The position numbers and the translations under genes are program-made. Below, piece after piece: positions 21,305-47,395 of a DNA stretch of 64,000 nt. Source of the stretch: Verrucomicrobiota bacterium (GTDB lineage Bacteria > Verrucomicrobiota > Lentisphaeria > JABSQK01 > JAJFLO01); contig JAJFLQ010000116.1 in assembly GCA_021772615.1 (NCBI GenBank), forward strand, positions 97,744 through 161,743, written 5' to 3'. Numbering within the stretch: the first letter of the stretch is position 1; each line of letters begins with the position of its first letter. The notes under the pieces are model-generated. The model ran no database searches, was not told the DNA's origin, and was given only the letters and a program-made list of their open reading frames with translations.

Positions 21305-21356
21305 GCGAGACGCTGGGAAAGCCATGCCGCAGAGCGGGATGAACGCCAGCGAGTGG
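21305..21356 (+). repeat. Hairpin repeat family, A-type copy
   Basis: gcgagacgctgggaaagccatgccgcagagcgggatgaacgccagcgagtgg. Confidence 0.75.
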
Positions 21357-21520
21357 CGCCACCCCATGCCCTCTGGGGCTCGGGGCAATTCCAAAGCCGG
21401 ACCCTGTGTGCCAAGATTTTTTACAATCCCACTTGAAACAGCACCGACGCAACGGCACAACGACATTAATACCGCAGCCGTTCCGGCGGATCACACTGAC
21501 ATACGATTGAGGTCATAGTC

Positions 21521-27320: not shown

Positions 27321-27509
27321 TCTGCGGACGACGCCGGCCTGTCGTCAACTCCGTCATTATGGTCAACTGGATCAACCAGCGTACTGAGACACCTATGCAT
27401 ACGCCGGCCTGCCGTCAATACCGTCATTATGGTCAACGTGGTCAACGTGGACAACCTTGTCAATTCATTAGTCATTCTCTTTCATCATGCCGAGATTAGA
27501 GCCAACGCG

Positions 27510-31422: not shown

Positions 31423-32453
31423 TCAATTTTTATGGCCGGCGGCGCAAGCGCGTCACGGGCTTGCAGATACGGGCTCGATTTGAATCCCAGGAGATTACCG
31501 GGAAAACGCCGGCAGGCCCCATTGTAACGGCGGACGGCGTCGTTATAGCGCTTCCGCTCGACCGTTATTCGATTTTCCGAACCTTCGAGCTGCGCCTGCA
31601 GCGCAAGAAAATTCTCGGTCACGACTTCCTGCGATCGCGCACCGTAACGCGTCAATACATCCGCCAATCCTGCGGACAGGCGTTCCTGCTTCTCCTGAAA
31701 CGCGGTTAGCGCGGCGTCATCGAGAGACTCTGGGGCGATTGACTCGTCGGCCACTGCGGCATGCGCCGCAAGCAGATCGTCAAGCGCGGTACGCTCGATG
31801 TCCGCAGCCGCGTTCACCATTGCGACGAGTTGCGGCACCAGATCCGCGCGCCGCTGGTACACATTCTCAACCTGCGACCACGCCGCGTTGACCTGTTCCT
31901 CATGGTCGATCAGACCATTGTATACGCTAAAAAACACGATCGCGACGCCGATAACGGCAGCTGCGGCAACGCCGGTGACCAGTTGCATCGAGCGACGACC
32001 GGCGGAGGCCGTTCGGTCGCGGTGCCGACGTCGTTTCTTTCGTAAGGCGCCTTTAAGTTCGAGCCCGGGCCGATAGTCCGGTTGCAGCGTCAAACACCGT
32101 TCGAGGTAACGCTGTGATGTGTCAAACAGATTCGGTTGAACATCGGCCTCCGCCCGATTCATCCACGCCTTCGCCAGCAGGGCATTCGCTTCAACAGACA
32201 ACGGCTGCAGCGCGACAGCGTGTTCGAGCGCGGTTGCGGCATCATGCCAATTATAGGATTCGAGATAGGCCCGGCCCTGATCGAGGTAGGTATCGGCCTT
32301 GTCCAGCGCGGCTTGATACTCCAACTCTGTGAGCCCGACATCGAGCGCAATCTGCTTCAGTCGCGCCTCCGTCAATTCGTTCTCTGGCTGCCGACACTCG
32401 AGGTCCAGCATCTTTTCGATAAATGGCTTTAACGCCTCTTCGATCTCCGCCAT
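31419..32453 (-). CDS. LemA family protein with an N-terminal TPR-like extension
   Basis: The C-terminal 190 aa match LemA (TM helix followed by AAWSQVENVYQRRADLVPQLV...RKRYNDAVRRYN...FPGNLLGFK). The N-terminal helical-repeat region of about 150 aa looks TPR-like. Confidence 0.7.
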   Translation of the reverse strand: MAEIEEALKPFIEKMLDLECRQPENELTEARLKQIALDVGLTELEYQAALDKADTYLDQGRAYLESYNWHDAATALEHAVALQPLSVEANALLAKAWMNRAEADVQPNLFDTSQRYLERCLTLQPDYRPGLELKGALRKKRRRHRDRTASAGRRSMQLVTGVAAAAVIGVAIVFFSVYNGLIDHEEQVNAAWSQVENVYQRRADLVPQLVAMVNAAADIERTALDDLLAAHAAVADESIAPESLDDAALTAFQEKQERLSAGLADVLTRYGARSQEVVTENFLALQAQLEGSENRITVERKRYNDAVRRYNGACRRFPGNLLGFKSSPYLQARDALAPPAIKID

Positions 32454-33565
32454 CAGAGTTTCCGCTCATCATGCGATGCTTCAGGTTCTCCAATGCGATT
32501 CACGATATGACCATCCCGCGATTGCGAATCGATCCGAATTCCGATACAACCAAGAAACACCCGTATCGGCGTGTTCAACATGTCCGTCTCTTTGCGGTCA
32601 CGCAACTCGGCCACGAAATCATCAAGATGCCTGACATCGCCACTTATCCACTCCACGTTCTTGTCGACACGAAAACGATGCCGCTCTTGAAGATCCAGCA
32701 TGTGTACCTTCGTTTGCGACTTCGACGGTGGACTGAACGGAAACAATCGTCTCATCAATCTTGCCAGATCCCGGTGGTGAAAAATATGCAGCTCACATCG
32801 CGGACAACGTGTATAGCGAAAGAATCGCGTTTGCTGCGGCCTTTCCTCGAATCTCTCGTCGCAGCCGGCGCAATAGGCGACACGTTCCCGCCGCGCTGCT
32901 TTTTCCGCCAACGATTGAAGGCTCGGCCGGAATGCAGAATTAAGCAGTCCATACCGTGATACGATCCGCAGAATCACAAGCGTAAGCAGCACGATGTACA
33001 TGAAAAGTCCCCATTCGCCAAACACATTCGCGTTCCAAAGTCCGTGAAGGCAACAGGCGACAATGAATGCCGGCAGCAACCCGTAACCAATGCCCTTTTT
33101 CTTGAACTGATAAAATGCCATCCCCATCGGAGCGCTGAACGCGATATGACCGGGAATTGTCAAAATCGTTCGACTGATCAGCGTCGCCAAAGGCGCCTCG
33201 GCATTCACAACGTACATGACATCCTCGTACGTCGAAAATCCAAGCGCGACGCATGACATGTACACCACGCCGTCGACCAGCTCGTTCATATCATGCCTGA
33301 TCCGCGCGTACACGGCAGCCAGCGCCATAAGCTTCGACAGCTCTTCGACGGGCGCAATGACAAGAAAAGCACCGGCTGTGGTTGCGGGGCCATCAACGAA
33401 GGAATAAAAGACGGTCGCGAAAATGATGGACAACAGCCCGCCAACAAACGTGCAGTACAGCATCAGCGAGATCGGCTCTTTCTCGAACGTATCTTTCTCG
33501 CGGATATAAAAGATATACCCGACGCCGCAGACGAATGATATGACGACGTAGGCCAGTAATTGCAT
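32453..33565 (-). CDS. PrsW-family intramembrane metalloprotease with a C-terminal zinc-ribbon-like extension
   Basis: A multi-TM N-terminus carries the PrsW motifs EELSK (EExxK), FSTYED (FxxxE) and HxxxN (HGLWN). The C-terminal soluble part carries CxxC...CxxC (CAGCDERF...CPRCELH). Confidence 0.7.
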   Translation of the reverse strand: MQLLAYVVISFVCGVGYIFYIREKDTFEKEPISLMLYCTFVGGLLSIIFATVFYSFVDGPATTAGAFLVIAPVEELSKLMALAAVYARIRHDMNELVDGVVYMSCVALGFSTYEDVMYVVNAEAPLATLISRTILTIPGHIAFSAPMGMAFYQFKKKGIGYGLLPAFIVACCLHGLWNANVFGEWGLFMYIVLLTLVILRIVSRYGLLNSAFRPSLQSLAEKAARRERVAYCAGCDERFEERPQQTRFFRYTRCPRCELHIFHHRDLARLMRRLFPFSPPSKSQTKVHMLDLQERHRFRVDKNVEWISGDVRHLDDFVAELRDRKETDMLNTPIRVFLGCIGIRIDSQSRDGHIVNRIGEPEASHDERKL

Positions 33566-33759: not shown

Positions 33760-34080
33760 ATGCATGATTTTAAGGCAATTGAACAAACATTAGAAGACCG
33801 CCTGGTTGCACTGACCAAACGAATGGAAGACATCGACGACAGCCTCGGCGCTACGAGCGATGATGATTTCGCAGAAATGGCTACAGAATCGGAGAATGAC
33901 GAGACCCTTGAAGCCGTAGGCCATGCGACGGAAGACGAAGTCAAGCAAATTGTCCTCGCTCTGGAGCGAGTAAAATCGGGGACCTATGGTAAATGTTCGT
34001 CGTGTGGGCGTGCGATTTCCGCGGAGCGCCTGGAGGCTGTCCCCTATGCGATCCGCTGCATTGACTGTGCCCGCGGGTAG
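33760..34080 (+). CDS. DksA/TraR family C4-type zinc-finger protein
   Basis: A 106-aa product with an acidic coiled-coil N-terminus and a C-terminal CSSCGRAI...CIDC (C4 zinc finger). The size and pattern fit TraR/DksA. Confidence 0.75.
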   Translation: MHDFKAIEQTLEDRLVALTKRMEDIDDSLGATSDDDFAEMATESENDETLEAVGHATEDEVKQIVLALERVKSGTYGKCSSCGRAISAERLEAVPYAIRCIDCARG

Positions 34081-34581: not shown

Positions 34582-35355
34582 ATGGGAATTTTCAGATCGA
34601 TTTACCGATACATCATTACGCTCGGCGGACTGATCGAGAGCGGGATCGACGGCAGTACCGACGACCTGCTGTCCACACCGTCCGGGATCAAGGCCAGCTA
34701 TCAGAAAACCCGCGAAAACTGGACGCAGCAATACAGTGAAGTCCGTGAGGCCGTGGCGCACCTGATGATGGTGCTGGAACAGAAACGCAAACGCGTGAAC
34801 GAACTCAAGGCCGAAGCGGATCAGGTCAAGATCAAACTCAAGGGTGCAGTCGGCAAGTTCAAAGAAACGAACGACACACGTTACCAGCAGGCATTCAACG
34901 AGCTGTACACCCGGGACCAGGCGATCGGGGTAGAACAGGAACAACTCGACAAAGACGTTCAGGAACTCCACGCCAAGGTCGACACCTACAAGGTCAAGCT
35001 GAACGATATGCAGAAGCGCATCACCGACCTCAAGAAGAAGGAAGCTTCGGCGATCGCGGACATTGTCAGCAGCCAGCAGATTATCAAGCTGAACGACCGT
35101 CTCAATCACTTGAGCACGGATCTTGATGACCGCAATCTTCAGGCAATCGAAGAGCGCCGCCAGAACCTCGGCGCCCAAGCGAAACTGTCCGGAGAATTGG
35201 CGGCGGTAGAAGACGCCCCGAACATTGATCAGGAACTGATGGCAGCAGGCATGAAATCGGAAGCAGCCGACATTTTTGCTGCAATGCTAGCCGAAGAGGA
35301 TAAGACGCCGGCGACCGCAACGGAAAAGGCCGCAGCGGAAGGCCGCGAGCTTTAG
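34582..35355 (+). CDS. pspA: PspA/IM30 (Vipp1) family protein, the bacterial ESCRT-III superfamily homolog
   Basis: A canonical MGIF N-terminus with a 257-aa all-helical coiled-coil composition (EQKRKRVNELKAEADQVKIKLK...) and the PspA length range. The antisense ORF at 34123-35178 is rejected as a shadow. Confidence 0.8.
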   Translation: MGIFRSIYRYIITLGGLIESGIDGSTDDLLSTPSGIKASYQKTRENWTQQYSEVREAVAHLMMVLEQKRKRVNELKAEADQVKIKLKGAVGKFKETNDTRYQQAFNELYTRDQAIGVEQEQLDKDVQELHAKVDTYKVKLNDMQKRITDLKKKEASAIADIVSSQQIIKLNDRLNHLSTDLDDRNLQAIEERRQNLGAQAKLSGELAAVEDAPNIDQELMAAGMKSEAADIFAAMLAEEDKTPATATEKAAAEGREL

Positions 35356-35523: not shown

Positions 35524-35576
35524 CAGGCGCTGGAAAGCCATCCCGCGGAACGGGATGAACGCCAACGAAAGGCGTC
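35524..35576 (+). repeat. Hairpin repeat family, A-type copy located between pspA and the AAA ATPase gene
   Basis: caggcgctggaaagccatcccgcggaacgggatgaacgccaacgaaaggcgtc has a perfect 8-bp stem (CATCCCGC/GCGGGATG). Confidence 0.8.
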
Positions 35577-35672
35577 AATACCGTGCCCCTCCGGAGCCGG
35601 CAATCAGATCTCCCGGCGGCAATTTCAAAACCGTTTAATACTGTGCGCTCTGAAAATGGGATATCCTGCCGT

Positions 35673-37451
35673 ATGAAGGTCGTTGCGTCGACGTCCGTTG
35701 CTGATCTGCCGTTCATGCAGCGGTTGCGCGAGGCATATGTCTCGCACCAGTCCAATCAGTTCTTGATAAGCGGCAACGTGAGTGACGTGTTTCGCTGCCC
35801 GTGGTTACGCGGTGGCGACGTCTTTACAAACGCCGGCTACAGTAGCCTGAGCGCGTACCTCACCGACCGCCTGTCTATGACCGACCGGATGGTCATACGC
35901 TACAATATCGCCCGCGGCATTCGCTTTCGTACGGACGCCGACCGCACCCGCGCTCACGCCCTTTACGATTCGATATTCACGGCCAATGAACGCAAGATAG
36001 GTCTTAGCAACTTCGACGAGGTCATCGGCAAGAGCGCGGCCTATGTCTTCCCGTCATTGGTGCTGCTGCGAAAACTGTGTTCACTGGCACAGAACGGTGC
36101 GCCCGGCAAAGGATCGATCGCGATCATTTTCGAGTTCGCGGATTCTATTCTACCGAACGCTCCGGCTGATCGTATGTCGGACGCAGACCGCCGGCGCCTG
36201 ATCTTCTTCAAGGAATGGTTTCGAGATCCGGCGTTCATTGCCTCCAAACACCTCGCCATTCTCTGTGCCGACGCAGCCGGAGCCGTGAATGAATCGATAC
36301 GCTCGCTGCCGCACATGGTCCCCATCAATGTGCCGCTCCCGGACACGTCGGAACGCAGGCGCTTTATCCGCTGGTGCCTGCGCACTCAGTCCGATGTCCG
36401 CCTGAGCGGTACACAGACGGCATTTGCGGAACTCAGCGCCGGAATGACACTGCTCGACATTCAACAGATCATGCGTCTCGCCTGTCACCGGCGCGGCAAA
36501 TTGCGGCGTCAGGATTTCATCGGCTATCTCAACCGCTTGCTGATCAGCAAGATCGGCGATTATGTGGAGATCGTGCGCCCGGACTACGCGCTTGACGCCG
36601 TGGTCGGAAATACCGAACTCAAGCAACATCTGACGCGGCTGAAGACCGTATTGCAGCGCGGCGACGCCGATGCGGCGCCAACCGGCGTACTCATTACGGG
36701 CCCGAACGGCGTCGGCAAGACCTTTATTACCATGGCATGGGCGGGAGAATGCAACCGGATCGTGCTGATTCTGAAGAACCTGCGAAGTTCGTGGTTCGGC
36801 GAGACCGATCAGATATTCGAAAAGATTCGCAACGTGTTGTCGGTATTGGGAAATGTCATGATTATCGTCGACGAGGCCGACACGGTATTTGCCAAGCCCG
36901 GGCATCAAACCCACGCGACAGAACAGCGATTGTTCGGCAATGTCATAAGCATGATGAGTGACCGCCGCAACCGGTCGCGAATACTGTGGGTGCTCATGAC
37001 GGCGCGGCCCGACAATCTTGCGCCGGATTTCAAACGCAGCGGGCGATGCGGCCTGCACCTGCCCGTCTTCGACCCGGAAGGCGCAGATCGCGAGGCGTTC
37101 CTTGACTACGTCCTCAAACGCAGCGGCGTCAGCGCCGATTCCGTGTCGGCGGCAAGGCGCCGCAAGCTGTTAAAAATGTCCGCCGGATACAGCCCTGCCG
37201 ATTTCCGGGAATTAATTGCAGAATTCAAGATGGAGGCTATAGTCCGCAAGTCGCCGGTTACAATGGCTATATGCCTTGATGTGCTGCAGGATTTTATCCC
37301 CGGAGAAATAACAGTTCAGCGCCGCCTGCAGACCCTCCAGGCGGTGATGCACTGTTCCCGCCGATCGCTGTTGCCGGACACATTGCGATCGGCATCAAAA
37401 GTGGAGGTTCAGGAGGAAATTAATACGCTGCAGAGGCAACTGCAGAGATAG
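35673..37451 (+). CDS. Classic-clade AAA ATPase (Vps4/spastin/FtsH-like ATPase module) with a roughly 330-aa N-terminal region of unknown function
   Basis: The start is taken at MKVVAS, because the longer ORF overlaps the repeat at 35524. Motifs seen: Walker A GVLITGPNGVGKTF, Walker B VMIIVDEAD, sensor-1 and SRH-like VLMTARPDNLAPDFKRSGRCGLHL (compare ATNRPDxLDxAxLRPGRFD), and a FGETDQIFEKIR stretch (compare GESEKLVRxLF). The N-terminal region carries degenerate P-loop-like stretches and may be an inactive AAA-like D1. Confidence 0.8.
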   Translation: MKVVASTSVADLPFMQRLREAYVSHQSNQFLISGNVSDVFRCPWLRGGDVFTNAGYSSLSAYLTDRLSMTDRMVIRYNIARGIRFRTDADRTRAHALYDSIFTANERKIGLSNFDEVIGKSAAYVFPSLVLLRKLCSLAQNGAPGKGSIAIIFEFADSILPNAPADRMSDADRRRLIFFKEWFRDPAFIASKHLAILCADAAGAVNESIRSLPHMVPINVPLPDTSERRRFIRWCLRTQSDVRLSGTQTAFAELSAGMTLLDIQQIMRLACHRRGKLRRQDFIGYLNRLLISKIGDYVEIVRPDYALDAVVGNTELKQHLTRLKTVLQRGDADAAPTGVLITGPNGVGKTFITMAWAGECNRIVLILKNLRSSWFGETDQIFEKIRNVLSVLGNVMIIVDEADTVFAKPGHQTHATEQRLFGNVISMMSDRRNRSRILWVLMTARPDNLAPDFKRSGRCGLHLPVFDPEGADREAFLDYVLKRSGVSADSVSAARRRKLLKMSAGYSPADFRELIAEFKMEAIVRKSPVTMAICLDVLQDFIPGEITVQRRLQTLQAVMHCSRRSLLPDTLRSASKVEVQEEINTLQRQLQR

Positions 37452-37495: not shown

Positions 37496-37912
37496 ATGGC
37501 ACAGATACCTAATGATCCAAAATATGTGTATGCTGATATCCTTATCGCGCTGGCACATTGCGACGACCATGTCGATGGGCGCGAACGGGAGTTCCTGAAC
37601 GGTGTGTTCAAGGATATGGACCTCGATTTGAAGATCACAGACCTGATGTGGGAAACGCCGCGAACGCTCGATGTCGTCGAGGCGATCCTTGCAGACGTGA
37701 CAGACGAATCGTTCAAGCGTTGTCTGCTAAAGGACTGTTTTCTCCTCGCATACGCAGACGACATGGTCGTCCCGGAAGAAAACAAGTTCATCCAGCACCT
37801 GTGTGCGATGCTCAATATCGACGACGAGGTCGAGGAACGGATCGAAAAATGGGTCGAGGATGCCCTTGACCATAACGCTGAAGCACAGGAGTTGTTCGGC
37901 CACTGCGCCTGA
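37496..37912 (+). CDS. TerB-like (tellurite-resistance TerB / DjlA N-terminal domain family) protein
   Basis: A 138-aa acidic helical protein with ALAHCDDHVDGREREFL, comparable to the TerB AKADGxxxxEE pattern. It lies 45 bp downstream of the AAA ATPase and is probably cotranscribed. Confidence 0.5.
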   Translation: MAQIPNDPKYVYADILIALAHCDDHVDGREREFLNGVFKDMDLDLKITDLMWETPRTLDVVEAILADVTDESFKRCLLKDCFLLAYADDMVVPEENKFIQHLCAMLNIDDEVEERIEKWVEDALDHNAEAQELFGHCA

Positions 37913-38373: not shown

Positions 38374-39027
38374 ATGATGAACGCGATAATTGAATTCTTT
38401 CAGGTGATTGTGACACCAGGCATGTTGCCGTACACGGTCATGCTGGGGCTGGTGATACTCTACTGGATCACGGTGATAATCGGTGCGATGGATATAGACA
38501 TTATTGATGGCCCTGATTTCGACGTGGACGGTGATATGGACGCTGATGCCGATGCGCCTGATGCCGGTGCGTTCCGTTACATTGTAGGCTTTGTCAATGC
38601 CGACAAAGTCCCGCTCACGATTATACTGAGTTTCCTGATCATCAAGATGTGGATAATCGCATGTTTGTACTACATGTACCTGGCGCCGAACATATCGGTG
38701 CCATTGCCTCCCGTCGTTGTGGGGATTATTTTGTTTGCAGTGGCGTTTTTCACTGCAACATTTCTAACCGGTTACACCACCCGCCCCCTGGCCGACGTGT
38801 TCGAGCACAAGCCGACGCGCGGCCGGCAGCATCTGGTCGGCCGCGAATGCCGTGTAAAAACAACATCGGTGACACACGACTTCGGCCAGGCAGAAGTAAA
38901 GATCGATCAATCGTTTGTCCTCATTTCAGCGCGCTGCAGTGAGGCGACTGAGTTTGAAAAAGGCGATCAAGCTGTAGTCGTGGGCTACGATCAGGAAAAA
39001 GACGTTTACGAAATCCGGAAATTATGA
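38374..39027 (+). CDS. NfeD-like membrane protein (YuaF/YqiJ family) with a C-terminal OB-fold domain
   Basis: The N-terminus has several TM helices and an acidic D-rich loop. The C-terminus GRECRVKTTSVTHDFGQAEVKIDQSFVLISARC...GDQAVVVGYD matches the NfeD beta-barrel. It lies immediately upstream of flotillin, the classic nfeD-floT pairing. Confidence 0.7.
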   Translation: MMNAIIEFFQVIVTPGMLPYTVMLGLVILYWITVIIGAMDIDIIDGPDFDVDGDMDADADAPDAGAFRYIVGFVNADKVPLTIILSFLIIKMWIIACLYYMYLAPNISVPLPPVVVGIILFAVAFFTATFLTGYTTRPLADVFEHKPTRGRQHLVGRECRVKTTSVTHDFGQAEVKIDQSFVLISARCSEATEFEKGDQAVVVGYDQEKDVYEIRKL

Positions 39028-39055: not shown

Positions 39056-41161
39056 ATGGGCAGTTTTATTGTTGGTTCTGCGTTTCTCTTAGCCATTGCA
39101 CTGGTCGTCGGGACAGGAATCCTGTTCCTGGCAAAGAAGATGTACCGTAAAGTTGATCAAGGCGAAGCCTTGATCATCAACAAGAGTGACCGAAAGGTTC
39201 CTGTATCATTCAGTGGTGGCTTGGTCTTTCCGATTTTCCACAAGGCAGAGGTCATGGACATCGCCGTAAAGGCAATGGAGGTCGAACGCAGCGGCAAGAA
39301 CGGGCTGATCTGCGAAGACAACATTCGCGCCGACATCAACGTAACATTCTATGTCCGCGTCAATAAGACCGAAGACGATGTCCTCAAAGTAGCTCAGGCC
39401 GTAGGCTGCGAGCGCGCATCGACTCTGGACACACTGAAAGAGCTGTTTCAGGCCAAGTTCTCGGAAGCGCTCAAGACGGTCGGAAAACAGATGGAGTTCA
39501 TGACGTTGTTCACGGAACGCGAGCAATTCAAGGAACGCATCATACGTGTGATCGGGGAAGACCTCAACGGTTACAAGCTGGAAGACGTCGCCATTGATTA
39601 TCTCGAACAGACACCGCTCGAAAGCCTCGATCCGGACAATATCCTTGACGCACAGGGGATTCGCAAGATCACTGACCTCACGGCAAGGGAGGCGATCTCT
39701 ACCAACGAATTCAGGCGGAACAAGGAGAAGGTAATCACGCAGCAAGACGTCGAGGCCCAGGAGAAAATCCTCGAACTCGAAAAGCAGCAGGCCGATGCGG
39801 AGGCCCGGCAGCGCCGCGAAATTCAAACGATTCAGGCACGCGAACAGGCAGAGATCGATAAGGTAGGTTCCGAAGAAAAGCTAAAGGCCGAACATGCACG
39901 CATTCGCACGGCAGAAGAGATCGCTGTTGCCGAGGAGAATAAACAGCGTCAGGTCGAGATCGCTCTAAAGGCGAAAGAGCGAACAATCGCCGTCGAGACG
40001 GAACGCGTCCAACGCGATCAACAGCTTGAGGCAGTGGAGCGCGAACGTCTCGTTGCCATCAAGGACATCGAGAAGGAAAAGGCGGTCGAGATCGAGAAGA
40101 AGAAGATTCAGGATGTCATTCGGGAACGCGTGATGGTCGAAAAGACCGTAGCGGAAGAACAGGAAAAGATCAAAGACACCGTCGAACTGGCAGGCGCCAA
40201 ACGCGAACAGCAGGTGCAGCTCATTGCGGCGCAGCGCGAGGCCGAAGAAAAACTTGTGACCGAGACCAAGGCTGCGGAGGCGAAGGAACAGGCAGCCAAG
40301 AGTCTGTACGAAGAGGCCGTAACCATGGCCGAGGCCGAACGCGTAAGTGCGGAAAAATACGCACATGCGAAGAAGGTGATGGCCGAGGGCGTGATCGCCG
40401 AGCGTTCCGCTGCCGGCCTCGCCGATGTCAAGGTGCGCGAAGCAGACGCCAACGCGATCGAACTCCACGGAAGAGCGGAAGCCAACGCAATGATAGAGAG
40501 GCACAAGGCCGAAGCGTTTGGTACTGAATCCATTGGCGACGCCAAAGCGAAAGCGGCAACCGCATCGTATACGGCAGAAGCCACAGGCACAGAGATCACC
40601 GGCACCGCCGAGGCCAAGTCCATGGCGGCGAAGTACAAGGCCGAGGCCGACGGTATCGACCAGAAAGCGGCCGCAATGAAGAAGTTCGATGGTGTCGGGC
40701 GGGAGCATGAAGAATTCAAACTCAACCTGGCCAAGGTCGAGCGCGTCGAAATTGCGGCGATAGACGTAAACCGTCAGGTCGCAGAGGCGCAGGCAATGGT
40801 CCTTGGCGAGGCCATGAAGACCGCAAACATCGACATTGTCGGCGGCGACGGCGAATTTCTGAATACGTTCTTCAAGTCGATTAGTCTGGCAAAGTCAATC
40901 GACGGCTTCGTCGACAAGAGCGACCTAACACGCGCCCTGACCAACGGCGACCATTCGAAGATCGGGGAAAAAATCAAGGCACTGATCGGCCGCGAAGGCC
41001 TGTCTCCCGAAGATATCAAGAATTTGACGGTGTCAGCACTGCTCGCGCGACTGGCGTTGAAAGGGAAGGATGACGGCATAAAGGCCGAAGCCGCCGGACT
41101 GCAGGGTGTCGTTAAAAACCTCGGTCTGGACGACGTCCTCGCCCTGTGGCTCGCGAAATAA
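39056..41161 (+). CDS. Flotillin (SPFH/band-7 family, FloT/YuaG-like) with an extended EA-rich coiled-coil
   Basis: An N-terminal TM anchor precedes an SPFH domain (VPVSFSGGLVFPIFHKAEVMDIAVKAMEVE...). A long E/A/K/R-rich flotillin coiled-coil region follows. The length is 701 aa. Confidence 0.85.
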   Translation: MGSFIVGSAFLLAIALVVGTGILFLAKKMYRKVDQGEALIINKSDRKVPVSFSGGLVFPIFHKAEVMDIAVKAMEVERSGKNGLICEDNIRADINVTFYVRVNKTEDDVLKVAQAVGCERASTLDTLKELFQAKFSEALKTVGKQMEFMTLFTEREQFKERIIRVIGEDLNGYKLEDVAIDYLEQTPLESLDPDNILDAQGIRKITDLTAREAISTNEFRRNKEKVITQQDVEAQEKILELEKQQADAEARQRREIQTIQAREQAEIDKVGSEEKLKAEHARIRTAEEIAVAEENKQRQVEIALKAKERTIAVETERVQRDQQLEAVERERLVAIKDIEKEKAVEIEKKKIQDVIRERVMVEKTVAEEQEKIKDTVELAGAKREQQVQLIAAQREAEEKLVTETKAAEAKEQAAKSLYEEAVTMAEAERVSAEKYAHAKKVMAEGVIAERSAAGLADVKVREADANAIELHGRAEANAMIERHKAEAFGTESIGDAKAKAATASYTAEATGTEITGTAEAKSMAAKYKAEADGIDQKAAAMKKFDGVGREHEEFKLNLAKVERVEIAAIDVNRQVAEAQAMVLGEAMKTANIDIVGGDGEFLNTFFKSISLAKSIDGFVDKSDLTRALTNGDHSKIGEKIKALIGREGLSPEDIKNLTVSALLARLALKGKDDGIKAEAAGLQGVVKNLGLDDVLALWLAK

Positions 41162-41314
41162 GTCAACTGCGTCGCCGCAGGCACGATGATATGGCTACGT
41201 TTAACATGGGACCGAGAACATGGTATATTAAGCAAACGATCCGGGCCAGAGGTTCCGCCGTTGAAATTGCCCCCACCGGGACTGATTGCTGCCCCCCAAA
41301 GGCTGCACGGTGGT

Positions 41315-41362
41315 GACGCCCTTCGTTGGCGTTCACAGCTTCAGATGTGGGTTTTCAGCGCC
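41315..41362 (-). repeat. Hairpin repeat family, B-type copy in inverted orientation
   Basis: gacgcccttcgttggcgttcacagcttcagatgtgggttttcagcgcc; its reverse complement gives ...gaaaacccacatctgaagctgtgaacgccaacgaaggg. Confidence 0.75.
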
Positions 41363-41692: not shown

Positions 41693-44600
41693 ATGTCCGA
41701 AGAATCATCACCAACCAATCCCGATGCACCACAAGCCGCTGCCACCGAAGACCAGAGTGGAGAGACGCTGGAAGGCGGCGCCTACGAAGTACTGCGAAAA
41801 CGCCTGAGTACGCTCAATCGTAGCCTCCTGAAGAAACTCGAACAACTCAACGTCCGGCGCAAAGACGTGTTCGGCGGCCAGGAGCTGGCGATCCTGGGCA
41901 ACGCCCGCATCAAGACCGAGAACAACTGCGTCCCCAGGGATATCATCGGCGTCGGCAGCCATCTGATCTTCGGCTACAACGTGTTTATCGGCCTCAAGTC
42001 CGAAACCGCGGTCAGCGACGTGTTCAGCGTGCATCGCTTCGACGGCGTCGATCTCCACCTTCCCGACGCGGACGTGCTCGGCGATCCGAATTTTCTGCGC
42101 GACTTCAGCGAACTGTACAAGTACTATAAGAACGCACGGTTCCTGCAATTCATCAAGTCTCCCGGGCGCCTGCTGATGATCTTTCAGGTCGGCGAAACCG
42201 TCGGCGACCGCAAGATGTTTCGATTCAAGCTCCATCGCGACCACACGCTGGAATATGTCGACGACCGCGGCGATCTCGAATACACGCCGCCGCCGCAACA
42301 TGATTTCGAATGGGAATCGCCGTCGCGTGACGATCACGTGGCGGGCATGTATCCGCACATATCCATCCGGGATATTGTTTTTGTCGAATGCGTCGGCGGC
42401 GATCTCACGATAAAGGTAGAGAACAACACCGAGAGCGGCGACGGCATTTATGAGGAAGCGGTCGAGAATCCGGATCAGACCCTTGACGACGCTTATATTC
42501 GCTACGCACTGGTGGATGGCCTGGTGCTGCTAAAAATCCGGCCCTACCGTGAGAACGTCACGCGCTACCTCGTCTTTAATCCAAAGGACCAGACGGTCAC
42601 CCGTATCGATTCCATTGGCGAGGCCTGTATCAAACTGCCGGAAGGACACGGGCTTATTTTTCCCAAAGGCTACTTCCTGCATGGCGGCGGTGCACGACAA
42701 TTCGACGAAGATGTGGCGGGTATGCTGTACCATGATTGCGTCCGCTCCCCTAATGGCGAGGACTTCCTCTATATTTTTTATCATCGCGAGCACGGCCGTC
42801 ACATCCTGATTCGCTACAATCTCATCTCCAAGGAAATCTCGAATCCCATAATCTGCCATGGTTATTCGCACTACGATGACGGCAAGATGATGATGTTCAC
42901 GGCGGAGAACGACGACCCGCGCCGGGTGCATCCGATGCAGATCTGGCAAACACCGTTCTACGCCGACTCGTTCGAGATCGAACACAAAACAGACTCATTC
43001 CTCACCAAGATCGGCAATCGTGATCTTGTGCGCGGCATCTCCGAAGGCTACGCCATCAGTCGCCTGGCGGGAAGTGAACGGGTAACGCTGGTGATCTACC
43101 AGGACCTGATCCAATCCTGTACCAATATGATCGACGGCTACCATTGGCTTGATCACGACGAGGTGTTCAACCTGCAGTCGCTGGTAAAGGAGATGAAAAC
43201 TGCGGCATCGGCAGCGATCGACGAGTACGAGAAAGTTGTCCGCATCCGCGAGAATACTGCGACACGCATCACCGAAAGTGTGGCATCGGTCAAGCGCTGC
43301 CGGCTGGACTACGCCACGGACCGATTGCTCACTATCGACAACTTCGTTACCGCTCTGAGCGAGGTGCGGACGCTGCGCGGTCATGTGATCTCACTACGCG
43401 AGTTGCGCTATGCCGACCTTGCCCTGATCAATGATCTCGACAAACAGCTTGAGGTGATGAACCAGGACATCTCCGTGGCCTGCGTCGATTTTCTGATGCG
43501 CGATGATGCGCTCGCGCCGTACGAAGTACGTAACCGCGAGATCGAGGCGGGTATCGACAGTATCCACAAGATCGCCGATCTCAAACCACAGGCAGAATCT
43601 CTCGAGACGCTCGCGGCACAACTCGACCTGCTCACCGATGTCATTAACAATCTGAACATCGACGACGCCACCAAGACCACCGAAATCGTCGATAAGATCA
43701 CGGACATTTATGCCGGCGTCAATCGGACGCGCGCCCTGGTTCGCAATGCGCGCACGGAGCTGGGAAAGTCCGAAGCCAAGGCCGAATTTGCAGCGCAATA
43801 CAAGCTGCTGAGCCAGAGTATCAGCAACTACATCGGCATGTGCGACACCACGACAAAATGCGATGAATTCCTCACCAAGGTCATGATTCACATCGAGGAG
43901 CTGGAAGGAAGATTCGCCGATTTCGAAGACTACGTAATGCAGCTGCACGAGAAACGGGAAGAAGCCTATACAGCGTTCTCGAGTCGCAAACAGATCCTTG
44001 ATGACGAGAAGAAGCGCCGGATCGGGTCATTGGCATCATCTGCCAACCGAATCCTGAAAGGCGCGGTCAACCGTGCGGAGACATTCAAGAGCGTCGACGA
44101 GGTCAACGCCTACTTCGCCTCGGACCTCATGGTATCGAAACTACGAGGTATTGTCGAGACATTGCACGACATGGGGGATTCGGTAAAAGCGGATGACCTT
44201 AGCGGCCAGATAAAGACCGCCAAAGATGAAATCGTCCGCCGGTTGCGGGACAAGTTGGAGTTGTTTGATGAAGGCGACAATGTCATTAAACTTGGCGATT
44301 ACCGCTTTACGGTAAACACGCAGCCACTCGAACTCACGACGGTGATGCGGGACGGCGACATGGCATTTCACCTTAACGGAACCGATTTCTACGAGGCGAT
44401 AAACGATCCTGAGTTTCTGGAGACGCGGAACCTGTGGACGCAGGAATTGGTAAGCGAAAATCAAGAGGTATTCCGCGGCGAATTTCTGGCCTACCAGATT
44501 CTAATGGCCGCCGAGAACAACGATAAGAACCTTACTAACGAATCATTGAAGACTCTGGCAGTCAACGACGCGAAGTTGCTCGAATGCGTGCAACATTTTT

Positions 44601-46948
44601 GCGCGGACCGATACGATGAGGGCTACGAAAAAGGCGTTCACGATCACGATGCTGCCCGCATCCTGAAGGCCCTGGTCACGTTGCTACACGAGGCGCAGCT
44701 GCTACGGTACGACTCTGTGTCGCGCGCACATGCGATCCTGTTCTGGTGCTATTCGCCGGACGGACCGGCCAAGGAACGGCTGCGCAGCAAACTGCGCAGC
44801 ATCGGCGCCCTGCCGGCGGTATTCGGCTACACCGATACGTACCCACCCTATGTCGAAGAGATACGTGAGGCCATGGCCGCATTTTTCACCGATCTCGGAC
44901 GCATTCCAGACGCAACGATCCTGACCAATGCATCCGAGTATCTGTACCACGAGCTTCAGGATGCAAGCGATCTTGAGATCACCATCAGTCAGGAGACAAA
45001 GACCCTACGTGAGCGGTTCACAACATATCTCAAGGATAAGACGGTGTACCGCAAATTCACGGACGACATCCGGGCAATGGCGTCCGACCTGAAAAATACA
45101 CTTAGCCTCGTACATGACTGGGTCGCCGCCTACGTGCGCACGTGCGAAAACGATGACGCCGCGTTCCTGATTGACGAGGTCGTTACACTGATTGTTGCCG
45201 GCGACCGTTTCGTGGTCGATACTACGTCGGTCGTGACGTCTGCAACCGTCACGGACCTGCTGGGACGGCACCCGCGTATCGAGGGCAGTTCTATGCCGAT
45301 GCATCTCGACCGTTTCCTGCTCCGCCTCAAGACATATTGCGAGGTGCAGGTACCGCTCTACCGACGGTTTATCCATATGCGGACGGCGTTTATCGAGAAT
45401 CGGCGGGAGTCCATGCGACTGTCCGAATTCCAGCCCCGTGTCATGGGATCCTTTGTACGCAACAAGCTGATCAATGACGTCTACCTGAACCTGGTGGGCG
45501 CGAACTTCGCCAAACAGATGGGCGCTGCCGGCGAAAACAAGCGCACCGATCTCATGGGCCTGTTGTTGTTGATCTCGCCGCCCGGCTATGGCAAGACGAC
45601 CCTCATGGAATACATGGCCAACCGCCTCGGGCTCACGTTCATGAAGATTAACGGGCCCGCGATCGGTCACAAAGTCACGTCGCTCGATCCCGCCGAGGCG
45701 CCCAATGCCACAGCACGCGTCGAGCTGGACAAGCTGAACCTGTCCCTGGAGATGGGCAATAACGTCATGATCTATCTCGACGATATCCAGCACGTGAACC
45801 CCGAATTTCTGCAGAAGTTCATCTCGCTTTGTGACGCCCAACGGAAGATCGAAGGCGTGTATCGCGGGGTCACTCGCACATATGATCTGCGCGGAAAAAA
45901 GGTAGCCGTAGTGATGGCAGGAAATCCTTACACCGAGAGCGGCGATACGTTTCAGATCCCGGACATGCTCAGCAACCGCGCCGACACGTACAACCTCGGC
46001 GATATCTCAACGAGTGCCGCGGATGTATTTGCCATGAGTTTCATAGAAAATGCGATGACCTCAAATCCGGTACTTAACAAGATCAGCAGCCATGGGCATG
46101 ATGACGTCTACCGGTTTCTTGATGCGGTCGACCGGGGTTCCGCCGACGGCATTACATTCGACTACGGATACTCAGTTGCCGAAGTTGACGAGATACTCAA
46201 TGTGCTCCGAAAGCTGTGTAAGGTGCGTGACGTCGTGCTCGAAGTAAACCGGCAGTACATTTACTCGGCGGCGCAGCAGGACGACTACCGCACCGAGCCA
46301 CCTTTCAAACTCCAGGGTTCCTATCGCAACATGAACCGTATGGCAGAGAAGGTTTTCCCGGTCATGACCGATGCGGAAGTCGAGCAAATCATCACCGATC
46401 ATTACTACAACGAGGCCCAGACACTCACAGCCGGTGCAGAAAGCAATATCCTCAAATTCCGTGAGATCACCGGCAAGCTCGCTGACAACGACCTGGCGCG
46501 TTGGAATGAAATCAAGGGCGAATTCAACCGGCGTCAGGCGTTATCCGGCATCGACGACAGCGACGATCTGGGAAAGATTCTGGCGCAGCTTTCCGGATTC
46601 ACCGCAAGTGTCGGAAAGGTTCGCGACGTCCTCGACAAGGGGCTTAATACGGGGCTTAAAAACGTGCTCGAAGCCGTCGCTATGCGGTCGGCGGCTGCGG
46701 CAACGGATCGTCCGGATATCACGCCGCTCATCGACGCGGTGAAGGCGCTTGCGCCAACACCGGAAAGCACGGCAGCTACATCACCAAACGACAACGCAAC
46801 AGCCATAGCCGCTCGACAAACGGAAATACTTGAATCCATCGCCGGGATCCTCGAAGAACTCAAGGACAACAGCGAAACCAACGTACGCCTTCGCGACCTT
46901 ATCGAGCAACTAATGAAAGGCAGCCTTGTCGTCGACCTAAAAGACTGA
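41693..46948 (+). CDS. Giant (1751 aa) uncharacterised protein with a C-terminal MoxR/AAA_5-like AAA+ ATPase module
   Basis: It is a single uninterrupted ORF. Near residue 1270 there is a Walker A LLLISPPGYGKTTLMEY, then a Walker B VMIYLDDIQH, then a MoxR-like sensor KVAVVMAGNPYTE...IPDMLSNRADTYNL. The preceding roughly 1250 aa are largely helical and match no domain I can name. Confidence 0.85.
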   Translation: MSEESSPTNPDAPQAAATEDQSGETLEGGAYEVLRKRLSTLNRSLLKKLEQLNVRRKDVFGGQELAILGNARIKTENNCVPRDIIGVGSHLIFGYNVFIGLKSETAVSDVFSVHRFDGVDLHLPDADVLGDPNFLRDFSELYKYYKNARFLQFIKSPGRLLMIFQVGETVGDRKMFRFKLHRDHTLEYVDDRGDLEYTPPPQHDFEWESPSRDDHVAGMYPHISIRDIVFVECVGGDLTIKVENNTESGDGIYEEAVENPDQTLDDAYIRYALVDGLVLLKIRPYRENVTRYLVFNPKDQTVTRIDSIGEACIKLPEGHGLIFPKGYFLHGGGARQFDEDVAGMLYHDCVRSPNGEDFLYIFYHREHGRHILIRYNLISKEISNPIICHGYSHYDDGKMMMFTAENDDPRRVHPMQIWQTPFYADSFEIEHKTDSFLTKIGNRDLVRGISEGYAISRLAGSERVTLVIYQDLIQSCTNMIDGYHWLDHDEVFNLQSLVKEMKTAASAAIDEYEKVVRIRENTATRITESVASVKRCRLDYATDRLLTIDNFVTALSEVRTLRGHVISLRELRYADLALINDLDKQLEVMNQDISVACVDFLMRDDALAPYEVRNREIEAGIDSIHKIADLKPQAESLETLAAQLDLLTDVINNLNIDDATKTTEIVDKITDIYAGVNRTRALVRNARTELGKSEAKAEFAAQYKLLSQSISNYIGMCDTTTKCDEFLTKVMIHIEELEGRFADFEDYVMQLHEKREEAYTAFSSRKQILDDEKKRRIGSLASSANRILKGAVNRAETFKSVDEVNAYFASDLMVSKLRGIVETLHDMGDSVKADDLSGQIKTAKDEIVRRLRDKLELFDEGDNVIKLGDYRFTVNTQPLELTTVMRDGDMAFHLNGTDFYEAINDPEFLETRNLWTQELVSENQEVFRGEFLAYQILMAAENNDKNLTNESLKTLAVNDAKLLECVQHFCADRYDEGYEKGVHDHDAARILKALVTLLHEAQLLRYDSVSRAHAILFWCYSPDGPAKERLRSKLRSIGALPAVFGYTDTYPPYVEEIREAMAAFFTDLGRIPDATILTNASEYLYHELQDASDLEITISQETKTLRERFTTYLKDKTVYRKFTDDIRAMASDLKNTLSLVHDWVAAYVRTCENDDAAFLIDEVVTLIVAGDRFVVDTTSVVTSATVTDLLGRHPRIEGSSMPMHLDRFLLRLKTYCEVQVPLYRRFIHMRTAFIENRRESMRLSEFQPRVMGSFVRNKLINDVYLNLVGANFAKQMGAAGENKRTDLMGLLLLISPPGYGKTTLMEYMANRLGLTFMKINGPAIGHKVTSLDPAEAPNATARVELDKLNLSLEMGNNVMIYLDDIQHVNPEFLQKFISLCDAQRKIEGVYRGVTRTYDLRGKKVAVVMAGNPYTESGDTFQIPDMLSNRADTYNLGDISTSAADVFAMSFIENAMTSNPVLNKISSHGHDDVYRFLDAVDRGSADGITFDYGYSVAEVDEILNVLRKLCKVRDVVLEVNRQYIYSAAQQDDYRTEPPFKLQGSYRNMNRMAEKVFPVMTDAEVEQIITDHYYNEAQTLTAGAESNILKFREITGKLADNDLARWNEIKGEFNRRQALSGIDDSDDLGKILAQLSGFTASVGKVRDVLDKGLNTGLKNVLEAVAMRSAAAATDRPDITPLIDAVKALAPTPESTAATSPNDNATAIAARQTEILESIAGILEELKDNSETNVRLRDLIEQLMKGSLVVDLKD

Positions 46949-47349: not shown

Positions 47350-47395
47350 ACCAGAGCTCGGTTTATGTTGCGCGCAACATAAACCGAGCTCTGGT
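47350..47395 (+). promoter_or_regulatory. Perfect 46-bp palindrome ACCAGAGCTCGGTTTATGTTGCG|CGCAACATAAACCGAGCTCTGGT
   Basis: Read directly from the sequence; both 23-nt arms are exact reverse complements. No T-tract follows on either strand. It lies between the XRE-like gene and the next plus-strand genes. Confidence 0.6.

What the first reader, a model, noticed from the sequence alone, without database searches (positions are those of the whole stretch)
35673..37451. Vps4-like AAA ATPase with a 330-aa unknown N-terminal region next to PspA
The C-terminal 260 aa carry Walker A/B, sensor-1 and an SRH with the double-Arg RSGR(C)G arrangement of the meiotic/classic clade. The N-terminal region has degenerate P-loop-like (FLISGNVSDVF) and Walker-B-like (IAIIFEFADSIL) stretches. 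That suggests a degenerate D1 AAA domain, or a novel substrate-recognition domain in place of the MIT domain of Vps4. Either would be a new architecture for a bacterial PspA partner.
Basis: partly seen in the sequence, partly recalled or inferred. Interest (0 to 1): 0.7.

Follow-up and report, generated by a model that had tools for sequence, protein, structure and literature searches.

The report
PspA-linked tandem AAA ATPase, dead first domain
The gene is real and encodes a two-domain AAA ATPase (a dead first ATPase domain plus a live second one) that sits next to a PspA-like membrane-repair protein in many bacterial phyla, but this architecture and pairing were already described from genome comparisons in 2020-2024, and nobody has tested what the protein does.

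Summary
ORF 35673-37451 (+) encodes a 592-aa protein. Its C-terminal half is an intact classic-clade AAA module: Walker A, Walker B, a W-F-G pore loop and two arginine fingers. The 295-aa N-terminal region is neither a new fold nor a MIT substitute. It is a degenerate AAA domain (D1*), shown by an internal profile match (E 3e-8) and by a confident AlphaFold model that aligns along its full length with the D1-D2 tandem of p97, Rix7 and NVL.

The upstream gene is a divergent PspA/Vipp1 (ESCRT-III superfamily) protein. The pairing is conserved: 53 of 58 related loci with enough upstream DNA carry a PspA-like gene upstream on the same strand.

The claim of a "new architecture" fails. Ravi et al. 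(mSystems 2024) already list "inactive-classical-AAA + classical-AAA" next to PspA, and a 34%-identical homolog sits in exactly their operon type. "Vps4-like" fits only as a functional analogy. There is no MIT domain, no Vps4 C-terminal domain, the protein has two cassettes, and the arginine-finger motif is the Cdc48/FtsH type.

New here:
- The PspA-like partners carry a conserved extreme C-terminal tag (LPE in most phyla, R-x-L/I/M in this clade).
- This clade has a conserved six-gene operon: PspA, AAA, TerB, YqiJ, SPFH and DUF3686.

Most likely function (inferred): ATP-driven remodelling of PspA polymers.

The parts
34582..35355 (+). PspA/Vipp1-like (ESCRT-III superfamily) protein, 257 aa; the conserved partner of the AAA ATPase
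   Evidence: PF04012 scores 25 bits, below the cutoff. The family profile hits Vipp1/PspA structures first (E 8e-6). 15 of 28 relatives hit PF04012. The AF2 model has a long helical hairpin, and the best Foldseek hits are Vipp1. A homolog lies upstream of the AAA gene in 53 of 58 loci.
34582..34638 (+). N-terminal helix-alpha0-like segment of the PspA-like protein (MGIFRSIYRYIITLGGLIE); predicted membrane anchor
   Evidence: Conserved across phyla in alignments A2 and A3. The membrane-binding role is inferred from what is known of PspA/Vipp1 helix alpha0. The AF2 model gives this segment (residues 1-25) pLDDT below 50 and no helix, so the helical, amphipathic character is inferred from the sequence pattern, not shown.
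35341..35352 (+). Extreme C-terminal tag of the PspA-like protein (G-R-E-L-COOH) after a variable acidic linker; candidate recognition tag
   Evidence: R255 is at least 90% conserved and the last residue is L, I or M in the window's clade. In other phyla 43 of 58 partners end in exactly LPE. Its role as a recognition tag is inference.
35532..35586 (.). REP-like dispersed repeat inside the 317-bp pspA-AAA spacer
   Evidence: Further copies lie at 10324, 21316 and (inverted) 41305.
35673..37451 (+). Tandem AAA ATPase, 592 aa (D1* degenerate + D2 active + C-terminal helical extension)
   Evidence: (pLDDT 91.3, pTM 0.82).
35673..36557 (+). D1*: degenerate, catalytically dead AAA domain (aa 1-295)
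   Evidence: hhalign of the N-terminal half against the C-terminal half gives probability 95% and E 3e-8. Foldseek aligns the full length to p97/Rix7/NVL D1-D2. A search with the N-domain alone finds 485 clusters, nearly all with the same architecture.
35760..35792 (+). Pseudo-P-loop FLISGNVSDVF (no Lys or Thr)
   Evidence: G34, N35 and D38 are invariant in 53 sequences. The family has only one G-x4-GK[ST] motif per protein.
36117..36152 (+). Pseudo-Walker B strand IAIIFEFADSIL (the D-E pair is replaced by E-F here and by E-H in the consensus)
   Evidence: Aligned to the D2 strand MIIVDEAD by hhalign. Family alignment.
36333..36365 (+). PLPDxxER motif of D1*, at the junction between the alpha/beta subdomain and the lid
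   Evidence: P223 and R228 are invariant. The motif aligns with D2 'VFDPEGADR'.
36558..37262 (+). D2: active classic-clade AAA cassette (aa 296-530)
36699..36722 (+). Walker A, GPNGVGKT
   Evidence: G343, G346, G348 and K349 are invariant.
36786..36806 (+). Pore loop 1, S-S-W-F-G-E-T (aromatic-hydrophobic-Gly)
   Evidence: G376 and T378 are invariant. The loop aligns with p97 D2 'MWFGESE'.
36858..36881 (+). Walker B, MIIVDEAD
   Evidence: D400 is at least 90% conserved; E401 and A402 are invariant.
36993..37013 (+). Sensor-1 region LMTARPD (Ala at the canonical Asn position)
   Evidence: T443 and R445 are invariant and A444 is at least 90% conserved. It aligns with p97 'ATNRP'.
37032..37052 (+). 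Second region of homology with arginine fingers, K-R455-S-G-R458-C-G
   Evidence: R455 and R458 are invariant. The motif aligns with p97 'RRFGRFD' and 'LRPGRLD'.
37185..37205 (+). Lid motif GYSPADF (classic-clade G-[YF]-S-G-A-D type, Ala at the sensor-2 position)
   Evidence: S507, A509 and F511 are at least 90% conserved. It aligns with p97 'GHVGADL' and 'GFSGADL'.
37263..37448 (+). Conserved C-terminal helical extension (aa 531-592; QRRLQTLQAVMHCSRRSLLP); function unknown
   Evidence: Q553 and A557 are invariant; R550, C561 and P568 are at least 90% conserved. Modelled helices at 547-560 and 576-591.
37496..37912 (+). TerB-domain protein, 138 aa, directly downstream of the AAA gene
   Evidence: PF05099 E 3e-7. 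Same position in L004, L005 and L084.
38374..39027 (+). YqiJ/NfeD-like membrane protein, 217 aa
   Evidence: PF21001 YqiJ_N E 8e-7. Conserved in L005 and L084.
39056..41161 (+). SPFH (Band 7)/flotillin-like protein with a long coiled coil, 701 aa
   Evidence: PF01145 E 9.5e-13 when the first 215 aa are scanned alone; the full-length scan gave no hit.
41693..46948 (+). Giant DUF3686 + DUF7902 + AAA protein, 1751 aa
   Evidence: PF12458 E 7e-184. Same position in L005 and L084.
47351..47394 (+). Terminator-like hairpin with a 20-bp stem, closing the six-gene cluster
   Evidence: This is a consensus scan only.

Best explanation
The gene encodes a type-II-like classic AAA ATPase with no N-terminal adaptor domain. 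Its first cassette (D1*, aa 1-295) arose by duplication and has lost the Walker A lysine and the Walker B catalytic glutamate. It cannot hydrolyse ATP and most likely serves as a structural ring for hexamer assembly or docking. Its second cassette (D2, aa 296-530) keeps everything needed for ATP-driven substrate threading.

The protein belongs to the bacterial family that Ravi et al. annotated as 'inactive-classical-AAA + classical-AAA', whose one constant genomic partner is a divergent PspA/ESCRT-III-like protein.

Proposed mechanism, in three steps:
- The PspA-like protein polymerises on stressed inner membrane through its N-terminal helix-alpha0-like segment.
- The AAA hexamer engages its flexible C-terminal tail, which ends in a conserved tag (R-x-L/I/M in this clade, LPE in most others).
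- The hexamer pulls subunits through the D2 W-F-G pore, remodelling or recycling the polymer.

This would make it a functional analogue of Vps4 acting on ESCRT-III, but not a Vps4 orthologue.

In this clade the gene pair is embedded in a conserved six-gene membrane-maintenance operon with TerB, YqiJ/NfeD, an SPFH/flotillin protein and a DUF3686 AAA giant.

Shown here: the architecture, the loss of catalytic residues in D1*, the intact D2 motifs, family membership, the gene linkage and the tag conservation. Inferred: hexamer formation, the role of D1*, PspA as the substrate, and recognition of the tail.
For: Architecture:
- An internal N-half versus C-half profile match gives probability 95% and E 3e-8, aligning the pseudo-Walker B through the lid onto D2.
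- The AF2 model has pLDDT 91.3 and pTM 0.82.
- Foldseek aligns about 600-640 columns to the D1-D2 tandem of p97, Cdc48, NVL, Rix7 and Afg2, with E 1e-20 and TM up to 0.57.

Motifs: D1* lacks Lys/Thr in its pseudo-P-loop and lacks the catalytic Glu. D2 has invariant K349, E401, R455, R458 and G376. There is one Walker A per protein across the family.

Family:
- There are 418 relatives among GTDB species genomes.
- The N-domain alone finds 485 clusters at 50% identity, nearly all 550-630 aa with the domain at the N-terminus.
- D2 forms a clade with 95% bootstrap support, separate from Cdc48 D1, Cdc48 D2 and FtsH, in a rough neighbour-joining tree.

Published precedent. Homolog P0065 lies in the published operon type PspA, PBP+OmpA, permease, ABC ATPase, 278-aa protein, AAA.

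Linkage: a PspA-like gene lies upstream on the same strand in 53 of 58 loci with at least 4.5 kb of upstream flank. It is directly adjacent in 16 loci.

Partner identity.

Tail tag: 43 of 58 partners end in LPE after a hypervariable linker. The window's clade ends in R-x-[LIM].

Six-gene operon: conserved in L005 and L084, whose AAA proteins are 54-57% identical to the window's.
Against: - No experiment exists for any member of the family. The substrate assignment rests only on gene neighbourhood.
- Five of 50 loci with at least 7 kb of upstream flank have no PspA-like gene within 10 kb.
- In the window the two genes are separated by 317 bp containing a REP-like element, so co-transcription is not shown.
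- The sensor-1 Asn is Ala across the family, which could mean slow or regulated hydrolysis.
- The PspA assignment is weak by single-sequence criteria: Pfam is below its cutoff, and the Foldseek E-value is only 8e-3 among generic coiled coils.
- I could not compare the protein directly with the published exemplar AEY64320.1.
- No Vps4 sequence was available for the tree.
Confidence: 0.6

Rival explanations
1. The relationship runs the other way. The PspA-like protein regulates or anchors the AAA ATPase, as E. coli PspA binds and inhibits the AAA+ domain of PspF. The ATPase then threads some other client, for example damaged or mislocalised membrane proteins, in the manner of Msp1/ATAD1 or the FtsH unfoldase module.
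Against: The only partner conserved across all operon variants is the PspA-like protein. Its conserved terminal tag after a disordered linker is the typical layout of a threaded substrate. There is no transmembrane segment and no protease domain on the ATPase.
Confidence: 0.25
2. The N-terminal 295-330 aa is a novel, non-AAA substrate-recognition domain standing in for the Vps4 MIT domain.
For: No Pfam or NCBIfam model recognises the region.
Against: The profile-profile match to the protein's own D2 has E 3e-8. The confident model has the strand and helix order of an AAA domain, and the full-length protein aligns to D1-D2 of p97, Rix7 and NVL. The PLPDxxER junction motif is retained.
Confidence: 0.02
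3. It is a decayed or truncated Cdc48 or FtsH homolog with no function of its own.
For: The best sequence hits are Cdc48, VAT and p97, all far below family cutoffs. The Cdc48 N-domain is missing.
Against: The ORF is intact. The family has 485 clusters at 50% identity with a constant length and many invariant residues in both halves, including the dead domain. It forms a distinct clade separate from Cdc48 and FtsH. Synteny is conserved across more than 8 phyla.
Confidence: 0.03
4. The cluster is an anti-phage or conflict system: TerB domain, giant AAA protein, membrane-perturbing effector.
For: TerB domains and large AAA proteins occur in stress and conflict islands. PADLOC gives weak hits to IetA and TRIP13.
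Against: The PADLOC hits are generic AAA similarity (28 bits or less), and no system-specific protein was matched. The neighbouring genes are housekeeping membrane-stress genes (LemA, TPM, PrsW, DksA-like). The PspA-AAA pair is vertically conserved across phyla rather than patchy.
Confidence: 0.05

Closest known systems
PspA-associated 'inactive-classical-AAA + classical-AAA' proteins (Ravi et al., mSystems 2024, PMC11237479; exemplars AEY64320.1 from Clostridium sp. BNL1100 and the OGG56892.1 operon of Ca. Handelsmanbacteria)
   Same: Dead N-terminal AAA cassette plus active classical AAA cassette. Encoded beside a bacterial PspA. Homologs occur in the same PspA, PBP+OmpA, permease, ABC, Snf7-like, AAA operon type.
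   Different: Here the pair is directly followed by TerB and by the YqiJ, SPFH and DUF3686 module. The paper describes that module with CesT/Tir-PspA, not with this ATPase, and TerB is not mentioned in its main text. The conserved C-terminal tag on the PspA partner is not mentioned in its main text either. The family has been described only computationally.
Vps4/CdvC with ESCRT-III (archaea, eukaryotes)
   Different: No MIT domain and no Vps4_C or beta-domain hit. Two cassettes instead of one. 47.9 bits against the 650-bit CdvC cutoff. The arginine fingers are R-x-x-R, the Cdc48/FtsH type, where Vps4 has adjacent arginines (the Vps4 motif is from my own knowledge).
Cdc48/p97/VAT and other type II classic AAA ATPases with one degenerate ring (Pex1/Pex6 D1, NSF D2, Rix7/NVL)
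   Same: Tandem D1-D2 fold over the full length. Best sequence scores of any characterised family. The W-F-G pore loop matches that of p97 D2. It follows the principle of one structural ring plus one motor ring.
   Different: No N-terminal double-psi-barrel domain. D1 is completely dead. TIGR01243 scores 63.6 bits against a cutoff of 802. It forms a separate clade in the rough tree. The partner is PspA rather than ubiquitin, SNARE or peroxin substrates.
PspF-PspA (Proteobacteria)
   Same: An AAA+ protein functionally coupled to PspA and encoded beside it.
   Different: PspF is a sigma-54 enhancer-binding protein with a DNA-binding HTH, and PspA inhibits it. The window protein gave no Sigma54_activat hit among Pfam families at E up to 0.01 and has no HTH.

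Membership tests
Classic AAA clade (PF00004-type) | Match to the AAA (PF00004) model above the gathering threshold | tested here: met
   60.4 bits against a cutoff of 21.2, aa 339-463.
Classic AAA clade (PF00004-type) | Second region of homology with two arginine fingers, an aromatic-hydrophobic-Gly pore loop 1, and a lid with G-[YF]-S-x-A-D (no sensor-2 Arg) | tested here: met
   R455 and R458 invariant; W-F-G with G376 invariant; GYSPADF. Exception: the sensor-1 Asn is Ala.
Classic AAA clade (PF00004-type) | Structural similarity to classic-clade members exceeds that to other AAA+ clades | tested here: met
Vps4/CdvC | N-terminal MIT domain | tested here: not met
   No MIT hit. The N-terminal 295 aa form an AAA fold.
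Vps4/CdvC | Single AAA cassette with a Vps4-type C-terminal/beta-domain region (PF09336) | tested here: not met
   Two cassettes. No PF09336 hit. The modelled lid and C-terminus are all-helical.
Vps4/CdvC | Score above the NCBIfam CdvC equivalog cutoff | tested here: not met
   47.9 bits against 650.
Vps4/CdvC | Placement within the Vps4 clade in a phylogeny | not testable with these tools
   No Vps4 or CdvC sequences could be retrieved. The rough tree lacks them.
Cdc48/p97/VAT | N-terminal double-psi-barrel domains (CDC48_N, CDC48_2) | tested here: not met
   No PF02359 or PF02933 hit. The protein starts directly with D1*.
Cdc48/p97/VAT | Two nucleotide-binding cassettes and a score above the TIGR01243 cutoff | tested here: not met
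   D1* has neither the Walker A Lys nor the catalytic Glu. 63.6 bits against 802.65.
Cdc48/p97/VAT | Tandem D1-D2 AAA fold | tested here: met
   Full-length Foldseek alignment, E 1e-20.
PspA-associated inactive-AAA + AAA family (Ravi et al. 2024) | Inactive N-terminal classical AAA domain fused to an active classical AAA domain | tested here: met
PspA-associated inactive-AAA + AAA family (Ravi et al. 2024) | Encoded in a conserved neighbourhood with PspA (or a Snf7-like protein) | tested here: met
   Adjacent in the window. Present in 53 of 58 related loci. The P0065 operon matches the published OGG56892.1 operon type.
PspA-associated inactive-AAA + AAA family (Ravi et al. 2024) | Direct sequence homology to the published exemplar AEY64320.1 | not testable with these tools
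   The exemplar sequence could not be retrieved. Membership rests on identical architecture plus operon type.
PspA/IM30 (ESCRT-III superfamily), for the upstream gene | Match to PF04012 above the gathering threshold | tested here: inconclusive
   The window protein scores 25.2 bits against 33.9. 15 of 28 relatives match at E<=0.01, best 5.9e-8.
PspA/IM30 (ESCRT-III superfamily), for the upstream gene | ESCRT-III-type helical hairpin with an N-terminal amphipathic helix; closest structures are PspA/Vipp1 | tested here: met
   The 8 best profile-to-PDB hits are Vipp1/PspA (E 8e-6 to 2e-3). Modelled hairpin H33-96 / H99-210. The top Foldseek hits are Vipp1, but with weak E-values. The alpha0-like N-terminal segment is conserved in sequence but is not modelled as a helix (pLDDT below 50).

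The most novel reading that the evidence does not exclude
Many bacterial phyla may possess a genuine two-part ESCRT-III machine: a PspA-like polymer plus a dedicated AAA disassembly ATPase. The ATPase would recognise a short conserved C-terminal tag (LPE, or R-x-L/I/M in this clade) rather than using a MIT-MIM contact. It would use a dead D1 ring as a permanent hexamer scaffold. In Lentisphaerota-like genomes it would be wired into a six-gene membrane-repair module with TerB, NfeD/YqiJ, flotillin and a DUF3686 AAA giant. [quoted passage not shown] It would also be an independent, convergent solution to recycling ESCRT-III polymers.
Probability: 0.45. Interest if true: 0.75.

Novelty: new member of a known kind. 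Interest (0 to 1): 0.45.

Why it matters
[quoted passage not shown] How bacterial PspA/Vipp1 polymers are disassembled is an open question.

This family is widespread: 418 species genomes and more than 8 phyla. It is tightly linked to a PspA-like gene and has an intact threading motor, which makes it the obvious candidate. No one has tested it.

The window adds no new architecture. The analysis does sharpen the hypothesis into a directly testable form:
- a defined partner;
- a defined candidate recognition tag;
- a defined motor domain and a defined dead domain;
- a conserved six-gene operon variant.

Tried and rejected
- Alternative GTG start at 35583. Rejected because it overlaps a REP-like repeat and homologs do not extend that far.
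- Look-up of the exact protein's contig. Not on record.
- First structure job for the PspA-like protein using locus-derived sequences. I repeated it with database homologs.
- D2-only homolog search to obtain named Vps4, PAN or katanin outgroups. It returned only fragments and archaeal TPR-AAA proteins, so a proper clade-assigning phylogeny was not possible. The rough neighbour-joining tree shows only that the family is separate from Cdc48 D1, Cdc48 D2 and FtsH.
- Full-length Pfam scan and PDB sequence search of the 701-aa protein found nothing. The SPFH domain appeared only when the N-terminal 215 aa were scanned alone.
- PADLOC scan for defence systems gave only generic AAA similarity.
- A more sensitive PspA profile did not find PspA-like genes in the five unlinked loci.
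- An apparent second Walker A in P0228 proved to be a chance match upstream of the pseudo-P-loop.
- Literature searches found no experimental study of this family.
Full report
OBSERVATION

ORF 35673-37451 (+) is real and encodes 592 aa. A longer reading from GTG 35583 overlaps a dispersed REP-like repeat at 35532-35586. It is not supported by homologs, whose alignments begin within the first 14 residues of the ATG form.

Pfam places an AAA domain (PF00004) at aa 339-463, with E 3e-16 and 60 bits against a cutoff of 21. The best NCBIfam hits are all classic-clade families, in the order CDC48, CdvC, PAN, FtsH. All are far below their cutoffs.

In a 53-sequence family alignment (A1) the following are invariant or nearly so:
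- Walker A, GPNGVGKT (aa 343-350)
- pore loop 1, S-W-F-G-E-T (aa 372-378)
- Walker B, MIIVDEAD (aa 396-403)
- the arginine fingers R455 and R458 in KRSGRCG
- the lid motif GYSPADF

The canonical sensor-1 Asn is Ala: the protein has T443-A444-R445 where p97 and FtsH have T-N-R.

THE N-TERMINAL REGION IS A DEAD AAA DOMAIN

Three independent lines agree.

1. A profile of aa 1-290 aligns with a profile of aa 291-592 at 95% probability and E 3e-8. This puts IAIIFEFAD onto the Walker B strand MIIVDEAD, and the PLPDxxER motif onto the equivalent D2 junction.
2. An AlphaFold2 model built on A1 is confident (pLDDT 91.3, pTM 0.82) and shows two consecutive alpha/beta-plus-lid modules.
3. Foldseek aligns about 600-640 columns of the model with the D1-D2 tandem of p97, Cdc48, NVL, Rix7 and Afg2 (E 1e-20, TM up to 0.57).

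D1* cannot be catalytic. The P-loop position reads G-N-V-x-D with no Lys or Thr; G34, N35 and D38 are invariant. The Walker B D-E pair is E-F here and E-H in the consensus. Across 230 family sequences, 182 have exactly one G-x4-GK[ST] motif. Of the two with an apparent second motif, the one I inspected (P0228) is a chance match upstream of the pseudo-P-loop.

The strong conservation of the dead domain argues that it has a structural or docking role. It also argues against decay.

CLADE

Sequence searches of the PDB are led by VAT, p97 and Afg2.

A rough neighbour-joining tree of AAA cores shows the family's D2 as a clade with 95% bootstrap support, separate from archaeal Cdc48 D1, Cdc48 D2, FtsH and archaeal TPR-AAA proteins. 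No Vps4 sequence could be obtained, so the position relative to Vps4 remains open.

There is no MIT domain, no Vps4_C hit and no Cdc48 N-domain hit. The R-x-x-R finger spacing aligns with the RPGRFD-type motif of p97. That Vps4 has adjacent arginines instead is from my own knowledge.

THE NEIGHBOUR IS A DIVERGENT PspA

The 257-aa product of 34582-35355 scores below the Pfam PspA_IM30 cutoff (25 against 33.9 bits). Other evidence is stronger:
- A profile of 28 relatives finds Vipp1/PspA structures as its eight best PDB hits (E 8e-6 to 2e-3).
- 15 of the 28 relatives match PF04012 individually.
- Sources name several close homologs "phage shock protein A".
- The model has the long hairpin H33-96 / H99-210 at pLDDT above 90.
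- The top Foldseek hits are Vipp1 tubes, although with weak E-values among generic coiled coils.

LINKAGE

A scan of one genome per GTDB species found 418 relatives. The 80 best come from Lentisphaerota (51-57% identity, the closest), Sumerlaeota, Poribacteria, Verrucomicrobiota, Planctomycetota, Hydrogenedentota, Desulfobacterota, Acidobacteriota and Nitrospirota, among others.

Among loci with at least 4.5 kb of upstream DNA, 53 of 58 carry a homolog of the window's PspA-like gene upstream on the same strand. It is directly adjacent in 16 loci. In 42 loci it lies 2.3-6 kb away, with transporter genes in between. Five loci with full flanks have none, even when searched with a profile.

The N-domain alone recovers 485 clusters at 50% identity from 1.84 billion representatives. 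Nearly all are 550-630 aa with the domain at the N-terminus.

PRIOR DESCRIPTION

Ravi et al. [quoted passage not shown] They list the following:
[quoted passage not shown] The Poribacteria homolog P0065 is 34% identical to the window protein over its full length. It sits in exactly that second arrangement. The architecture and the PspA partnership are therefore already known computationally.

I found no experimental work on the family. [quoted passage not shown]

WHAT IS ADDED HERE

1. The PspA-like partners share a conserved N-terminal helix-alpha0-like segment, a conserved EFDxLIGL-type segment, a hypervariable hydrophilic linker and an invariant extreme C-terminus.
   - 43 of 58 end in exactly L-P-E.
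   - Poribacteria end in K-L-G-E.
   - The window's clade and Sumerlaeota end in R-x-L/I/M; the window has G-R-E-L.
   - A conserved terminal tag on a disordered tail is what one expects of a sequence handed to a threading ATPase. The main text of Ravi et al. does not mention it. Its role is inferred.

2. In the window's clade the pair heads a conserved six-gene cluster:
   - PspA-like
   - AAA
   - TerB (PF05099)
   - YqiJ/NfeD-like (PF21001)
   - SPFH/flotillin-like (PF01145, seen only when the N-terminus is scanned alone)
   - a 1751-aa DUF3686 + DUF7902 + AAA protein

   The same order occurs in L005 and in L084, an 8.8-Mb genome. L004 keeps PspA-AAA-TerB. Ravi et al. describe the SPFH-YqiJ-AAA-giant module with CesT/Tir-PspA, not with this ATPase.

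3. Three relatives carry two dead copies before the live cassette.

MECHANISM (best-supported, inferred)

D2 has every element of a substrate-threading classic AAA motor. D1* is a conserved dead ring, as in Pex1/6 D1 or NSF D2. The only universal genomic partner is an ESCRT-III-superfamily polymer with a tagged flexible tail.

The simplest reading is ATP-driven extraction of PspA-like subunits to remodel or recycle the membrane-bound polymer. That is functionally analogous to Vps4, but it was reached from a Cdc48-like tandem scaffold.

The main rival is the reverse relationship, modelled on PspA-PspF: PspA regulates or anchors an ATPase that acts on other membrane clients. A defence-system reading finds no support.

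VERDICT

Of the interpretation, the degenerate-D1 alternative is right, while the novelty claim and the Vps4 label are not. This is a new member, in a variant operon, of a family that has been described computationally but never studied experimentally. That gives it moderate interest.

Noticed in passing
window 10324-10369, 21316-21361, 35532-35586, 41305-41335 (inverted); also 6126, 23658, 29528, 41492 and 21207/41433: At least two families of short dispersed intergenic repeats with small hairpins (REP-like). One copy lies in the pspA-AAA spacer and others lie in the SPFH-DUF3686 spacer. They generate spurious ORFs that share peptide strings such as 'TPFVGVH'.
   Followed up: partly
window 29672-33565 (minus strand): Divergently oriented membrane-stress genes lie upstream of the cluster: a PrsW-family intramembrane protease (32453-33565), LemA with TPR repeats (31419-32453), and two TPM-domain proteins (30763-31422 and 29672-30766, the latter with a Gly-rich tail). 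LemA/TPM is another PspA-associated theme in the literature. It is not conserved next to the AAA gene in relatives.
   Followed up: partly
window 33760-34080 (+): A DksA/TraR-type C4 zinc-finger protein lies 500 bp upstream of the PspA-like gene. It is not found at this position in related loci.
   Followed up: no
window 41693-46948 (+): A 1751-aa protein with DUF3686 (E 7e-184), DUF7902 and a C-terminal AAA/AAA_5-like P-loop closes the operon. It is followed by a 20-bp-stem terminator-like hairpin at 47351-47394. Its function is unknown. Its length (1751-1753 aa) and position are the same in two other genomes.
   Followed up: partly
proteins P0150, P0164, P0219 (relatives, 818-856 aa): These are triple-cassette variants of the family. 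Two consecutive degenerate AAA domains, each with a G-N-x-x-D-type pseudo-P-loop (G-A-I-T-D in the first copy of P0150) and a P-x-P-x-x-x-R junction, precede the single active cassette.
   Followed up: partly
window 36993-37013 (aa 441-447 of the AAA protein): The sensor-1 Asn of classic AAA proteins is Ala in at least 90% of the family (T-A-R-P-D), while the preceding Thr is invariant. This may mean altered or regulated ATP hydrolysis.
   Followed up: no
L002 2740-9777; L038 5338-12841: In other phyla the PspA-like gene and the AAA gene are separated by an ABC-transporter block, with or without a PBP+OmpA protein. They are preceded by a conserved unannotated protein of about 265-283 aa. In L038 a Kdo/WaaP-like kinase follows the AAA gene.
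   Followed up: partly
window 27429-29351 (+): A 640-aa ORF gives only a weak, sub-threshold match to a response-regulator receiver domain near its C-terminus. It was not examined further.
   Followed up: no
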